Assembly (NCBI GenBank): GCA_018268055.1
Contig: JAFDXF010000019.1
Location: 8,580-72,579 of the forward strand
Reading direction: 5' to 3'
DNA length: 64,000 bases
DNA from: Bacteroidota bacterium
GTDB lineage: Bacteria > Bacteroidota > Bacteroidia > Chitinophagales > Chitinophagaceae
Below the pieces are notes generated by a model. It did not search any database. It had not been told where the DNA came from and was given only the letters and a program-made list of their open reading frames with translations. A program made the position numbers and the translations under genes. Of this stretch, positions 7,294 through 42,281 are shown piece by piece (position 1 is the stretch's first letter; each line of letters starts with the position of its first letter).

Positions 7294-7365
7294 GGCCCGT
7301 TCGTCTAAGGGCTAGGACACCACCCTTTCACGGTGGTGATACGGGTTCGAATCCCGTACGGGCTA
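7294..7365 (+). tRNA. tRNA-Glu (anticodon TTC)
   Basis: Acceptor GGCCCGT/ACGGGCT; anticodon stem CCACC/GGTGG with loop CTTTCAC; T-loop GGTTCGAATCC. CCA not encoded. Confidence 0.97.
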
Positions 7366-38858: not shown

Positions 38859-39521
38859 TTATTCCGGTACTAATTCAGATTTTGTCAGAAATTTTAGCGA
38901 TAAATAGGTTTTAAGCGTGTTTGGATCTTTCCTTACGATTAAGTTGATGCTGAGAAATGGAAAATCTTTATCATCGCTAATGTGAATACTATTCTGCGTA
39001 GTAGTTACAAAAGGGAAAGCAAAAATGCTGATGAAATATTTATTTTTATTATTGACGATATGCTGAACGTCTTTCAAATTAGCGGAGAACAACTTTTTTA
39101 ATTTTTTATATTCCTTAATTAATAACGCATAACTCTCGTTGCTCTGATCGCCATAAAGTACTACCTGAAAAAGTAGTCTTCTATGATAGTTTAAAGAATC
39201 TTTGTGTTTAAAGAGTCTTGCTTCACTAATATAATAGGCAATTGTATCTGTGGATATATCAAATGGGTTGAATGAAGTTGAGTACCCTTTAAAAAAATAG
39301 GAACTATTATCGGTTAAATATTGTGAGGTGTCGATAACAGTACGTGTGTTTTTCTGAAATTCTTCCAGCGTTTTTAAAAGTGGGTTGTCGGCAATTTTTA
39401 TTTTAAAAAAACGAAAGAATAAGTCGTTAGAAAACTCAATAGCGTTGGATGCTTGAGCTTTGACAAATATGCTGCATAATGAAATAAAGAGTGTGGAGAT
39501 GATTGTTTTTACTTGCGACAC
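38859..39521 (-). CDS. Hypothetical secreted protein (ORFan-like, AT-rich)
   Basis: GTG at 39521 overlaps the upstream TAG (TAGTG coupling); signal peptide ...FVKA|QASN; no family recognised. Confidence 0.6.
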   Translation of the reverse strand: MSQVKTIISTLFISLCSIFVKAQASNAIEFSNDLFFRFFKIKIADNPLLKTLEEFQKNTRTVIDTSQYLTDNSSYFFKGYSTSFNPFDISTDTIAYYISEARLFKHKDSLNYHRRLLFQVVLYGDQSNESYALLIKEYKKLKKLFSANLKDVQHIVNNKNKYFISIFAFPFVTTTQNSIHISDDKDFPFLSINLIVRKDPNTLKTYLSLKFLTKSELVPE

Positions 39522-39937
39522 TAAATGAAATTTTTTATCCATTTGAATAAGGCAATATCCCAGCCGAGCATTTTGAAACCGCTGTAAAATATAATGACCG
39601 CAAAAATTTTTTTCATCAATTCTTTGTCAATAACGATAGCCAACTTTCCGCCGAACAAGGCACCAATAAAAAAACCACAACATAGTAAGCCAACAATTTT
39701 AAAATTGATAGGTGTGCCATCTGCCTGACATTTATAAAAATAGGTTATCGTTGCTAAAATTACTACTGGTAAACTGAGTACAGCAAGTGAAGTGCCTTGA
39801 GCCTGATGTTGGGTATAATTCATAAAAAATACTAATGCAGGCACCATAATGATACCTCCGCCAACGCCTACTAATCCACTCAACATTCCTGCTGCAAGGC
39901 CTATCAGCAGTGCTACTAAGATTTCAGGAGAGCTCAT
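39521..39937 (-). CDS. Sulfite exporter TauE/SafE family, half-length (138 aa)
   Basis: GLAAGMLSGLVGVGGGIIMVPAL and QHQAQGTSLA motifs. Start moved to ATG 39937. Confidence 0.88.
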   Translation of the reverse strand: MSSPEILVALLIGLAAGMLSGLVGVGGGIIMVPALVFFMNYTQHQAQGTSLAVLSLPVVILATITYFYKCQADGTPINFKIVGLLCCGFFIGALFGGKLAIVIDKELMKKIFAVIIFYSGFKMLGWDIALFKWIKNFI

Positions 39938-39976
39938 ATTGTTTTTTTGTAAAGAGTTCAATGAATTCTATTTAAA

Positions 39977-40348
39977 TTAACGAACCAGTTTCATTCCAAG
40001 CAAGGTTGCTAAAAGTCCGATAAGTACACTGCCTATAACATAAAGCAAAAAATCGGTTAAACGATTTTCTTTAATAAGGCCAATTCCCTCAAGTGTAAAG
40101 GCAGAGAATGTAGTAAACCCGCCACACAAACCGGTCATTAGAAATAATTTCCAACTTTCATTATTTTCAATTGATTTAAAACTCAATCCCCAAAACAAAC
40201 CAATTAAAAAGCAACCCACGATGTTTACAGAAAGTGTTGCCCATGGAAAACGATTTGAATGATAGAATGTAATCCAATACTGACTGGCGTAACGTGCAAT
40301 ACTACCTAATGAGCCACCTAAGCCTACTAATAGAATATTCTTTATCAT
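39977..40348 (-). CDS. crcB: Fluoride efflux channel CrcB/FluC
   Basis: GGSLGSIARY, FPWATLSVNIVGCF and GLCGGFTTFSAF motifs. Confidence 0.95.
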   Translation of the reverse strand: MIKNILLVGLGGSLGSIARYASQYWITFYHSNRFPWATLSVNIVGCFLIGLFWGLSFKSIENNESWKLFLMTGLCGGFTTFSAFTLEGIGLIKENRLTDFLLYVIGSVLIGLLATLLGMKLVR

Positions 40349-40844: not shown

Positions 40845-41825
40845 CTATGGTTGTTTCTTTTCGGGATTTTCCCGTTCGTGTTCTTTGGTATAAGCTCTTA
40901 ATATATGTTTTACAAGTCGGTGACGCACCACGTCTTCTTCATCGAGTTCGATATGAGCAATGCCGTCAATATTTTTTAAAATACGCACTGCAGTAGCCAA
41001 ACCACTCCTTTGATTGCGTGGTAAGTCCACCTGAGTCATATCGCCGGTGATGATTGCTTTCGCATTGGCCCCAATTCTGGTTAAGAACATTTTTAATTGT
41101 AGCTCCGTAGAGTTTTGTGCTTCATCCAGAATTATAAAGGCGTTGTCTAATGTACGACCACGCATATAGGCAAGCGGTGCTATCTCAATCGTGCGTGTGG
41201 TCATATAATAGCCGAGTTTATCGGCAGGTATCATATCATCGAGAGCATCATATAGCGGGCGTAGATATGGATCAATTTTTTCTTTTAAATCGCCGGGTAA
41301 GAAGCCAAGACTTTCTCCCGCTTCTACAGCAGGGCGTGTGAGAATGATTTTTTTGACTTGTTTATTCTTTAATGCTCTTACTGCCAGCGCAACAGCCGTG
41401 TAGGTTTTGCCGGTACCTGCAGGACCAATGGCAAAAACAATATCATTTTTATCGGCTTCTACTGCCAACTTTTTTTGATTGGCTGTTCTTGCTCTTACCG
41501 ATTTTCCATTTGGCCCAAATACTAAAACATCACTTGGATTTCTTTCGGTAAAATGATCAACGATTTCAGCATCATCTCCTCCAAGAACTTGTTCAAAATA
41601 GTTTTCACTCATGTGGCCGTTTCGCTCCAGATAATTAACGATGAGTTCAATTTTTTCTCGGGCAGGTTCAATGTGCTCAGGAGCACCACTCAGTTTAATT
41701 TGAGTGCCACGAGATAAAATTTTTAATAAAGGAAATTTCTTTTTTAGAAGATCGAGTTTACCGTTATTTACTCCGAAAAATTCAATAGGGTTTACTGTTT
41801 CGAGGTTAATAATTGCGTCTGTCAA
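40845..41825 (-). CDS. phoH: PhoH family ATPase/RNA helicase (KH plus PhoH domains)
   Basis: GPAGTGKTY, TRPAVEAGESLGFLPGDL, LAYMRGRTL, DEAQN and TGDMTQVDL motifs. TTG 41825 preferred. Confidence 0.95.
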   Translation of the reverse strand: MTDAIINLETVNPIEFFGVNNGKLDLLKKKFPLLKILSRGTQIKLSGAPEHIEPAREKIELIVNYLERNGHMSENYFEQVLGGDDAEIVDHFTERNPSDVLVFGPNGKSVRARTANQKKLAVEADKNDIVFAIGPAGTGKTYTAVALAVRALKNKQVKKIILTRPAVEAGESLGFLPGDLKEKIDPYLRPLYDALDDMIPADKLGYYMTTRTIEIAPLAYMRGRTLDNAFIILDEAQNSTELQLKMFLTRIGANAKAIITGDMTQVDLPRNQRSGLATAVRILKNIDGIAHIELDEEDVVRHRLVKHILRAYTKEHERENPEKKQP

Positions 41826-41851
41826 ATTCAATTAGTTTGAGTTTCAAAATG

Positions 41852-41917
41852 CCGGCATAGGGTGATACCGGATTATTGTTTGTCTTTCCACTATTTTGGA
41901 AAGCTTCACCCTCACAT
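41852..41917 (-). promoter_or_regulatory. Structured 5' leader of the phoH operon with alternative pairings (candidate attenuator/riboswitch)
   Basis: AGGGUGA/UCACCCU (41912-41906/41865-41859); CUUUCCA/UGGAAAG hairpin (41903-41884); CCGGUAU-CACCCU-AUGCCGG hairpin (41871-41852). Confidence 0.45.
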
Positions 41918-42281
41918 CTCAATATTAGCTATGAAATTTGAATTATTGGCAATTTAATTATTCACATTATGTGGAAATAGTGGATGTGAAAAGGATTGAG
42001 ATAGTATAGATAAATCCTAAATGATCTTGATTATAGCTGCATTTCTAAAACTTCAAAATGTTATTACTTTATAAAACTATTTCGTTCGTGCAACGTGAAC
42101 ATTACAATTGCTGTCGTATGAATGCATAGCATATTTGCTTTATCTGATTGTTAAGATTAATAACTCAGGAATATGAATTTTTCTAATTATGGATGTTAAT
42201 AAATTCAAAAGATTGCATAGCTGCTGCTGTTATTCCAAATGTAATTTTAATTTTTGCTTTGAAAAATTTGATCATTAACCA

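What the first reader, a model, noticed from the sequence alone, without database searches (positions are those of the whole stretch)
41826..42002. Switch-like 5' leader upstream of phoH-lipoprotein-crcB-tauE with mutually exclusive folds
Seen on the minus strand: AUG-UGA-GGGUGAAG, hairpin CUUUCCA-AAAUAG-UGGAAAG, an A-rich linker, hairpin CCGGUAU-CACCCU-AUGCCGG, then CAUUUUG. The second hairpin's loop and flank (UCACCCU) exactly complement the upstream AGGGUGA. That gives either a pseudoknot or an antiterminator/terminator-like switch. A minimal start-stop ORF (41917-41912) overlaps the switching strand. A promoter-like TAAATTGC near 41956-41949 would give a ~120-nt UTR. Further 10-bp (41887-41896/41975-41984) and 8-bp (41916-41923/41995-42002) inverted matches lie upstream. 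It lacks the crcB fluoride-riboswitch consensus. Inference: a candidate undescribed cis-regulator of an operon holding an RNA helicase/ATPase and anion exporters.
Basis: partly seen in the sequence, partly recalled or inferred. Interest (0 to 1): 0.72.

Follow-up and report, generated by a model that had tools for sequence, protein, structure and literature searches.

The report
Pseudoknot leader RNA before phoH
The flagged stretch holds a real, apparently undescribed, roughly 70-base folded RNA (a pseudoknot) at the start of the phoH/ybeZ-type ATPase mRNA, conserved in about a hundred uncultured Chitinophagaceae species; it most likely tunes production of that one protein, and it is not a terminator switch for the anion exporters downstream.

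Summary
The core, window 41915-41846 on the minus strand, is a conserved structured RNA.

- **Distribution:** a covariance model finds one copy per genome in 98 of 147 genomes of the genus. It also hits 17 other genera among the 150 sampled in the family. There were no credible hits elsewhere in the order or phylum. A strict pattern scan of 185,579 species gave 71 hits, all in Chitinophagaceae-type MAGs.
- **Gene link:** every instance checked lies directly upstream of phoH (55 of 55; 70 of 71, the last at a contig end).
- **Structure:** across 86 distinct sequences, 94% of cells pair. All 7 pseudoknot pairs and 5 of 7 hairpin-1 pairs show compensatory changes. The CCGG hairpin is invariant.
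- **Rfam 15:** no match, even at E up to 10.

- A canonical Bacteroidota -7 box (41927-41920) puts the start of transcription near 41915. That makes the AUG-UGA mini-ORF and the upstream inverted repeats non-transcribed, and neither is conserved.
- There is no conserved U-tract and no conserved alternative pairing.
- The motif follows phoH, not crcB or tauE.

The best reading is an H-type pseudoknot leader acting in cis, possibly as a feedback site for PhoH. A small-molecule riboswitch remains a live rival. No expression data could be obtained.

The parts
41961..41975 (-). Conserved palindrome (family consensus TTCACA-nn-TGTGAA; here CACA-TAA-TGTG) just upstream of the -33 region. It looks like an operator for an unknown transcription factor.
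   Evidence: It sits at a fixed distance from the promoter boxes in about 50 species of several genera. No factor was identified.
41947..41956 (-). -33 region of the phoH promoter (family consensus TAACTTTAGG; here TAAATTGCCA).
   Evidence: Alignment of upstream regions. The position relative to the -7 box fits Bacteroidota sigma-A promoters (PMC9723704).
41920..41927 (-). -7 promoter box TAATATTG (relatives: TATATTTG, which matches TAnnTTTG exactly).
   Evidence: Near-invariant across the family. TAnnTTTG occupies -12 to -5 in flavobacterial TSS maps (PMC9723704).
41915..41915 (-). Predicted transcription start (about +/-2 nt); inferred, not measured.
   Evidence: It lies five bases after the G of the -7 box (applied). 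It coincides with the 5' end of the covariance-model match.
41846..41915 (-). The whole conserved RNA motif as matched by the covariance models.
   Evidence: R1 72 bits, E 2.9e-12. R2 64.9 bits. It is the only match in the 3.2-Mb genome.
41906..41912 (-). Pseudoknot 5' strand AGGGUGA.
   Evidence: Pairs with 41865-41859. All 7 family pairs show double (compensatory) changes.
41884..41903 (-). Hairpin P1 (7 bp, 6-nt loop).
   Evidence: 97% of cells paired; 5 of 7 pairs have compensatory changes.
41872..41883 (-). A-rich linker (family consensus A-CGC-AAA-nn-UAAU), with near-invariant unpaired bases.
   Evidence: Column conservation in the 86-sequence alignment. One species carries an extra hairpin inserted here (L002).
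41852..41871 (-). Hairpin P2 (CCGGU...GCCGG). Its loop (41865-41859, UCACCCU) is the pseudoknot 3' strand.
   Evidence: The four CCGG pairs essentially never vary (one exception in 86). The closing pair is U-G in 68, U-A in 8 and C-G in 4 sequences.
41826..41851 (-). A-rich, 26-nt spacer between the motif and the start codon; no structure predicted. An in-frame TAA lies at 41834-41832.
   Evidence: No conserved pairing in RNAalifold. The spacing class is 25-29 nt in 32 species and 53-71 nt, with an inserted hairpin, in 38 species.
40845..41825 (-). phoH (YbeZ/PhoL-type, 326 aa, no PIN domain) with a conserved UUG start at 41825-41823.
   Evidence: PF02562, E 2.2e-92. PDB 3b85, E 1.3e-74. The UUG start is conserved across the order.

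Best explanation
The element is a ~70-nt H-type pseudoknot RNA that forms the 5' end of the phoH (ybeZ-type ATPase) mRNA.

**Shown by comparison:**
- It has a hairpin P1, an invariant CCGG hairpin P2, and a 6-8-bp helix between the first bases of the transcript and the P2 loop.
- The pseudoknot 3' strand runs straight into the P2 3' strand, with 0-1 nt between them. Three to four nt cross back over the helix.

From these spacings I infer that the two helices can stack into one ~12-bp rod, with P1 and the conserved A-rich linker alongside.

**Inferred:**
- Transcription starts at about 41915, from a canonical Bacteroidota promoter.
- The folded RNA sits at the upstream edge of the unstructured translation-initiation region of a Shine-Dalgarno-less, UUG-started gene.
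- It acts in cis and after transcription, on translation initiation and/or mRNA stability of phoH.
- It most likely works as a specific binding site for a protein. The favoured candidate is PhoH itself or a partner, giving feedback control like the autoregulatory leaders of other RNA-metabolism and ribosome-biogenesis genes.
For: - Covariation: 94.1% of cells paired in 86 distinct sequences, 12 pairs with double changes, 0 of 500 shuffles as good, and slid controls at 0.03-0.08 against 0.237.
- Duplex energy of a sequence's own 5' strand with its own loop averages -9.5 kcal/mol, against -5.9 with a shuffled loop.
- There is one copy per genome, always directly before phoH.
- It stays with phoH whatever lies downstream.
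- The conserved -7/-33 boxes end a fixed 5-7 nt before the pseudoknot strand (PMC9723704).
- G-U pairs, including the conserved U-G closing pair, fix the strand as that of phoH.
- Near-invariant unpaired bases (ACGC, AAU, UAC) suggest specific recognition rather than a mere stabilising stem.
- In Bacteroidota, initiation depends on low structure from -20 to +20 (PMC6847099). The motif ends at -27.
- YbeZ/PhoH-like proteins are partners of the RNase YbeY in 16S rRNA maturation (PMC5101352, PMC10582724).
- A narrow, single-gene association is typical of protein-binding leaders (my own knowledge).
Against:
- P2 is invariant, so it is supported only by conservation and its closing pair.
- No conserved pairing links the motif to the start codon, so the way it would affect initiation is undefined.
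- RNA binding by this PhoH is not shown. The model of its N-terminal domain was poor (pLDDT 39), and sequence searches gave only a weak KH hint (E 0.24).
- Close relatives that lost the motif keep an almost identical PhoH, so there is no sign of protein-RNA co-evolution.
- The same features fit a small-molecule aptamer.
Confidence: 0.4

Rival explanations
1. It is a riboswitch. The pseudoknot would be an aptamer for a small molecule or ion (for example a nucleotide, an alarmone or a metal ion) and would control phoH translation.
For: It is a compact H-type pseudoknot with an embedded hairpin, strongly conserved junction bases and a 5'-UTR position. This resembles the preQ1-II, SAM-II and guanidine-III aptamers. 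Expression platforms are hard to see in Shine-Dalgarno-less Bacteroidota (PMC6847099).
Against: There is one copy per genome, one gene family only, and a range limited to part of one family. The gene is not a transporter or a biosynthetic enzyme. It matches no known aptamer model.
Confidence: 0.25
2. It is a constitutive structural element with no effector: a 5'-terminal fold that protects the mRNA from 5'-end-dependent decay or acts as a fixed translational enhancer or stand-by site.
For: The pseudoknot engages the first bases of the predicted transcript. Eight of 55 species add a plain hairpin at the extreme 5' end.
Against: A simple hairpin would do that job. An elaborate pseudoknot with near-invariant unpaired bases argues for specific recognition. 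Where an extra 5' hairpin is present, the pseudoknot is still kept.
Confidence: 0.15
3. One reading: a terminator/antiterminator-like switch with mutually exclusive folds, coupled to a start-stop mini-ORF, controlling a phoH-lipoprotein-crcB-tauE operon.
For: In this window hairpin 2 is followed by CAUUUUG, and an AUG-UGA overlaps the 5' strand. No terminator lies between phoH and the next gene. 45 of 126 instances have 5 or more U in the 8 nt after P2.
Against: No terminator was called. The U-tract is not conserved. The P2 stem is only 5 bp. The AUG-UGA is unique to this window and is cut by the predicted TSS. The helices do not compete for bases. The motif is kept where crcB/tauE are absent or distant.
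Confidence: 0.05
4. It is a separate small RNA gene, or a coding N-terminal extension of PhoH as several gene callers annotate it.
For: Database PhoH entries of 339-365 aa read through the motif. Upstream frames are open in some species.
Against: An in-frame TAA lies at 41834-41832 in this window. Indels are not multiples of three and hairpins are inserted. The pattern of covariation is that of RNA. There is no terminator to end a small RNA.
Confidence: 0.05

Closest known systems
H-type pseudoknot riboswitch aptamers (preQ1-II with its embedded hairpin, SAM-II/SAM-V, guanidine-III, preQ1-I)
   Same: Small size, 5'-UTR position, a 5' strand pairing with a hairpin loop, stacked helices, and an A-rich strand placed to lie along a groove. 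They control translation without a terminator.
   Different: No sequence or structure match to any of their Rfam models. No Shine-Dalgarno sequence is sequestered. The gene association is with an ATPase of RNA metabolism, in a single copy and a narrow clade. No ligand is known.
Autoregulatory structured leaders of RNA-metabolism and ribosome genes (rne 5' UTR, pnp leader, ribosomal-protein leaders such as the rpsA/S1 pseudoknot leader; PMC7038950 was listed but not read)
   Same: One structured leader tied to one gene whose product, or its partner, handles RNA, with a lineage-restricted distribution. This is the working model favoured here.
   Different: Binding of PhoH to the leader is untested. 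There is no sequence relationship to those leaders.
PhoH2-associated long ncRNAs of Bacteroidota (bioRxiv 10.64898/2026.10.21.760802)
   Same: A structured, Rfam-absent RNA next to a PhoH-family gene in Bacteroidota. It carries the idea of lineage-specific RNA partners for PhoH proteins.
   Different: Those flank PIN-PhoH (PhoH2) genes and are long; the cluster analysed is a 357-nt multistem motif. This one is ~70 nt, lies in the 5' UTR of a PIN-less YbeZ-type phoH, and has a different fold.
Fluoride riboswitch (crcB motif, RF01734)
   Same: A pseudoknotted leader in a locus that contains crcB.
   Different: No match even at E up to 10. It is two genes away from crcB and is retained where crcB is absent.

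Membership tests
Fluoride riboswitch (RF01734) | Scores against the Rfam covariance model | tested here: not met
   No hit at E up to 10 in 2-kb or 111-nt scans, and none at gathering score in the whole window.
Fluoride riboswitch (RF01734) | Sits directly upstream of fluoride-response genes (crcB, eriC-F and others) | tested here: not met
   It is always directly upstream of phoH. It is kept in loci without crcB (L090, L093) or with 1.4-2.4 kb inserted before the crcB block.
Known pseudoknot riboswitch classes (preQ1-I/II/III, SAM-II/V, guanidine-III, ZTP) | Match to the class consensus (Rfam model) | tested here: not met
   cmscan against all 4227 Rfam 15 families found nothing on the motif.
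Riboswitch (generic) | Direct, selective binding of a small molecule that changes expression | not testable with these tools
   Needs in-line probing or reporter assays.
H-type pseudoknot (structural class) | Two helices in the order 5'a-5'b-3'a-3'b, supported by covariation, with loop lengths that allow stacking | tested here: met
   All 7 pseudoknot pairs have compensatory changes. P2 is invariant, with a U-G/U-A/C-G closing pair. There are 3-4 nt between the P2 5' strand and the pseudoknot 3' strand, and 0-1 nt before the P2 3' strand. Simultaneous formation is inferred, not shown.
Intrinsic terminator / attenuator | Stable GC-rich stem immediately followed by a conserved U-tract, plus a competing antiterminator | tested here: not met
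   No terminator was called. 81 of 126 instances have 4 or fewer U in the 8 nt after P2. No conserved alternative pairing was found.
Autoregulatory protein-binding leader | Exclusive association with the gene of the binding protein | tested here: met
   55 of 55 and 70 of 71 instances lie directly before phoH, one per genome.
Autoregulatory protein-binding leader | The encoded protein binds the leader and represses its own synthesis | not testable with these tools
   Only indirect support. YbeZ-type proteins partner the RNase YbeY. The N-domain model was of low confidence, with a KH-like beta-alpha-alpha-beta-beta-alpha order.
PhoH2-associated ncRNA (2026 preprint) | Adjacent to a PIN-PhoH (PhoH2) gene; long multistem RNA | tested here: not met
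   The protein has no PIN domain. The RNA is ~70 nt with three helices.
Regulatory start-stop / leader mini-ORF | Conserved AUG-stop within the transcript | tested here: not met
   AUG-UGA occurs only in this window. The predicted TSS (41915) falls on the G of the AUG.

The most novel reading that the evidence does not exclude
The leader is the natural RNA ligand of a YbeZ-type PhoH protein and forms a feedback sensor for it. The purine-rich, Shine-Dalgarno-like 5' strand (GAAGGGUA) pairs with a pyrimidine-rich loop (UACCCUUC). That loop resembles the anti-Shine-Dalgarno tail of this genus's 16S rRNA (...GGAAUACCUCCUUU). The pairing may therefore imitate the 16S 3'-end region on which YbeY/YbeZ are thought to act. 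If so, the motif would give the first defined RNA recognition element for this widespread protein family of unknown function.
Probability: 0.12. Interest if true: 0.8.

Novelty: new member of a known kind. Interest (0 to 1): 0.55.

Why it matters
PhoH/YbeZ-type ATPases are among the most widespread bacterial proteins without a defined biochemical role. A conserved, covarying RNA dedicated to the phoH mRNA gives a concrete, small object to test, either as a PhoH binding site or as an aptamer. It adds an orphan RNA family from an uncultured Chitinophagaceae clade that Rfam lacks. It also shows that many database PhoH entries (339-365 aa) wrongly translate this RNA as an N-terminal extension. Finally, it is an example of post-transcriptional control in a phylum that lacks Shine-Dalgarno-based initiation, where expression platforms are poorly understood.

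Tried and rejected
1. **Rfam 15**, at gathering score and at E up to 10, on the window and on a consensus-like relative: nothing on the motif.
2. **Terminator reading:** no call, and the U-tract is not conserved.
3. **Conserved pairing between the motif and the start region.** RNAalifold over the full UTR plus 35 nt of coding sequence gave only P1, P2 and a 3-bp artefact with coding sequence. By eye I also checked CGAAG/CUUCG, GCUUC/GAAGU and an alternative GAAG/CUUC register. None covaries with changes in P1 or the pseudoknot.
4. **Mini-ORF and upstream inverted repeats:** specific to this window and upstream of the TSS.
5. **Coding extension:** excluded by the in-frame TAA and by indels that are not multiples of three.
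6. **Wider distribution.** Samples of the order and phylum gave only three weak hits. Two lie inside long ORFs and one has a broken P2. phoH upstream regions of other families, searched with filters off, gave nothing.
7. **16S h45 / anti-SD mimicry:** 9 of 16-17 matching bases by eye, and the strand covaries rather than staying fixed. Kept only as a low-odds speculation.
8. **PhoH N-domain fold.** Pfam found nothing. The AlphaFold model was poor because all 120 listed homologues were at least 86% identical. A PDB profile search gave only a Vigilin KH hit at E 0.24.
9. **MAFFT-only alignment.** It blurs the pseudoknot through 1-nt register shifts, so I ran an alignment-free duplex test instead.
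11. **Earlier scan notes:** none on this element.

Full report
**Observation.** On the minus strand the window reads, from 41927 downwards:
- TAATATTG
- AGAUGU
- GAGGGUGA
- AG
- hairpin 1 (CUUUCCA-AAAUAG-UGGAAAG, 41903-41884)
- a 12-nt A-rich linker
- hairpin 2 (CCGGUAU-CACCCU-AUGCCGG, 41871-41852)
- CAUUUUGAAAC..., and 26 nt after hairpin 2 the phoH reading frame.

The loop and flank UCACCCU (41865-41859) complement AGGGUGA (41912-41906). The 177 nt fold better than shuffles (z = -2.45). The stretch lies in a 450-nt divergent intergenic region between phoH and a DUF5686 gene.

**Conservation and covariation.**
- I collected phoH loci from relatives and aligned the upstream regions. The two hairpins and the long-range pairing recur in 17 of 20 loci of the genus with visible compensatory changes. 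Examples are GGGU/ACCC, GGGC/GCCC, AAGGC/GCCUU and GAGU/ACUC, and for hairpin 1 CUUCUG/CAGAAG, CUGCUGG/CCAGCAG and CUUCCGG/CCGGGGG.
- A covariance model (R1) finds exactly one copy per genome in 98 of 147 genomes of the genus. Many of the genomes without a match are only 1.5-2 Mb. It also hits 17 other genera among the 150 sampled in the family.
- On an 86-distinct-sequence model alignment, 94.1% of cells pair. All 7 pseudoknot pairs and 5 of 7 hairpin-1 pairs have changes on both sides. None of 500 shuffles reaches the observed scores. Sliding the partners by 1-3 columns drops the covariation score from 0.237 to 0.03-0.08 (similar on 53 sequences).
- That alignment is fitted to the model, so I ran two further checks. 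A plain MAFFT alignment still supports P1 and P2, but blurs the pseudoknot through 1-nt register shifts. An alignment-free duplex test gives -9.5 kcal/mol for a sequence's own 5' strand with its own loop, against -5.9 with a shuffled loop and -7.8 with foreign loops.
- The four CCGG pairs of hairpin 2 essentially never vary (one exception in 86), so they say nothing for or against pairing. Its closing pair is U-G (68), U-A (8) or C-G (4).
- The many G-U pairs fix the strand as that of phoH.
- These genomes are related to one another, so the counts overstate the number of independent events.

**Distribution and gene association.**
- A second model (R2) found nothing credible in 150-genome samples of the order and of the phylum. 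There were three weak hits: two inside long ORFs and one with a broken hairpin 2.
- phoH upstream regions of eight other families lack the motif, even with filters off.
- A strict pattern scan of one genome for each of 185,579 species gave 71 hits. All are uncultured MAGs labelled Chitinophagaceae, Chitinophagales, Sphingobacteriales or Bacteroidota.
- All 55 model hits and 70 of the 71 pattern hits (the last at a contig end) lie directly upstream of phoH.
- Downstream synteny (lipoprotein, crcB, tauE) is common but not obligatory. Several genomes have 1.4-2.4 kb inserted after phoH. One lacks the whole block and one lacks crcB, yet both keep the motif. Motif-less relatives keep the synteny. 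The element therefore belongs to phoH, not to the anion exporters.

**Promoter and transcript start (inferred).**
- Upstream of the motif the family shares three elements: a palindrome (TTCACA-nn-TGTGAA), a block TAACTTTAGG, and 18-22 nt further on TATATTTG or TAATATTG. The last is the Bacteroidota sigma-A -7 box TAnnTTTG.
- In flavobacterial TSS maps this box occupies -12 to -5 (PMC9723704).
- In the window the box is 41927-41920, so the start is predicted at 41915 +/-2, three bases before the pseudoknot strand.
The UTR is thus about 90 nt, not 120.
- The AUG of the mini-ORF is cut by the predicted start, and AUG-UGA is unique to this window.
- The 10-bp and 8-bp inverted repeats lie outside or across the promoter and are not conserved.
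- Eight of 55 species carry an extra plain hairpin between the -7 box and the motif.

**Architecture.**
- The order of strands is: pseudoknot 5', P1, linker, P2 5', pseudoknot 3' (inside the P2 loop), P2 3'.
- Only 0-1 nt separate the pseudoknot 3' strand from the P2 3' strand, and 3-4 nt (UAC-n) lead from the P2 5' strand to the pseudoknot 3' strand.
- By the usual geometry of H-type pseudoknots (my own knowledge), this allows both helices to form together and stack into a ~12-bp rod. The short loop would cross the deep groove, and the long loop (P1 plus the A-rich linker) would run back along the rod.
- The helices do not compete for bases, so 'mutually exclusive folds' is not required. No conserved alternative pairing was found.
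- Unpaired positions are near-invariant: ACGC after P1, AAU before P2, and UAC in the loop.
- One species has an extra hairpin in the linker.

**Expression platform.**
- No terminator is called.
- The 8 nt after P2 hold 4 or fewer U in 81 of 126 instances.
- The start codon is a UUG that is conserved across the whole order, with or without the motif.
- It lies 25-29 nt after P2 in 32 species and 53-71 nt after P2 in 38 species. The extra length in the second group is an inserted hairpin.
- Bacteroidota lack Shine-Dalgarno pairing and need low structure from about -20 to +20 (PMC6847099). The motif ends at -27, at the edge of that zone.
- An in-frame TAA (41834-41832) and indels that are not multiples of three exclude a coding extension. 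Even so, database entries of 339-365 aa translate straight through the motif.

**The protein.**
- PhoH here is 326 aa: an unassigned N-terminal ~108 residues plus the PhoH ATPase domain (PF02562; PDB 3b85).
- It has no PIN domain, so it is YbeZ/PhoL-type and not PhoH2.
- YbeZ-type proteins bind the RNase YbeY and are linked to maturation of the 16S 3' domain (PMC5101352, PMC10582724).
- The N-domain has no Pfam match. The AlphaFold model was poor (pLDDT 39). Its secondary-structure order is beta-alpha-alpha-beta-beta-alpha, which is KH-like. The only related PDB hint is a Vigilin KH domain at E 0.24. This is a lead, not a finding.

**Mechanism.**
- I commit to a cis-acting pseudoknot leader that sets phoH translation and/or mRNA stability. 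It is most likely recognised by a protein, with PhoH itself as the favoured candidate, because the element is single-copy, tied to one gene and restricted to one lineage, and the gene product belongs to RNA metabolism.
- The fold and the association are shown. The TSS, the stacking, the cis action and the effector are inferred.
- A small-molecule riboswitch is the main rival (0.25). An effector-less stabiliser comes next (0.15).

**Comparison with what is known.**
- Rfam 15 has nothing like it, and literature searches found no description.
- The nearest report is a 2026 preprint on long ncRNAs beside PIN-PhoH2 genes in Bacteroidota. That concerns a different protein class and a different RNA. 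The same preprint's divergent fluoride riboswitch candidate sits next to co-oriented crcB, has a putative Shine-Dalgarno sequence, and gives sub-threshold RF01734 hits at 294 of its loci; none of these holds here.
- The scan's earlier notes hold nothing on this element.

**Verdict.** This is a real and apparently new RNA family of a known kind: a pseudoknotted 5' leader. It has solid comparative support, but its effector is unknown and there is no expression evidence.

Noticed in passing
window 41961-41975 (-), and the same position in L002-L077: A palindrome (TTCACA-nn-TGTGAA) is conserved just upstream of the -33 region of the phoH promoter across several genera. It looks like an operator for an unidentified transcription factor, so phoH may be controlled at two levels.
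   Followed up: partly
P0010, P0004 and other database entries; L012, L014: Many public PhoH gene calls from this clade are 339-365 aa because the caller chose an upstream start. The extension (…INPVPPFAG…) is the translated pseudoknot motif. This misannotation may have hidden the RNA from searches restricted to intergenic regions.
   Followed up: yes
window 41825-41823; L022-L030: phoH starts with UUG (UUGAC/UUGAG) in every family of the order examined, whether or not the motif is present. That is an unusually deep conservation of a weak start codon.
   Followed up: partly
L004, L005, L016, L018, L020, L031-L039 and others (downstream of the motif); L020, L023, L036, L042, L055, L060, L065, L070 (upstream of it): Two optional hairpin insertions occur in subsets of species. 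A ~40-nt hairpin lies between the motif and the start codon, which gives the 53-71 nt spacing class. A ~25-nt hairpin lies between the -7 box and the motif.
   Followed up: partly
window 38859-39961 (-): The TauE-like ORF (39521-39961, 146 aa) covers only the C-terminal half of the Pfam model (positions 121-237 of 237) and directly follows crcB. Relatives have about 550-1,100 nt between crcB and the matching part. The overlapping 227-aa ORF (38859-39542) has no Pfam match and no counterpart in the 20 related loci checked.
   Followed up: partly
window 39977-40348 (-): crcB here has no fluoride riboswitch. The whole 64-kb window contains no Rfam match above gathering score except one tRNA (7294-7365).
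   Followed up: yes
window 41984-41975 and 41896-41887: An exact 10-bp inverted match pairs the promoter-upstream DNA with the loop and 3' arm of hairpin 1. I estimate about 0.015 such matches by chance in 180 nt. It is absent in the closest relative (L002) and lies upstream of the predicted TSS. It remains unexplained.
   Followed up: partly
G000 (whole assembly): The assembly holding the window (94 contigs, 3.23 Mb) contains no 16S rRNA 3' end. The 16S comparison therefore used three genomes of the same genus (L174-L176).
   Followed up: yes
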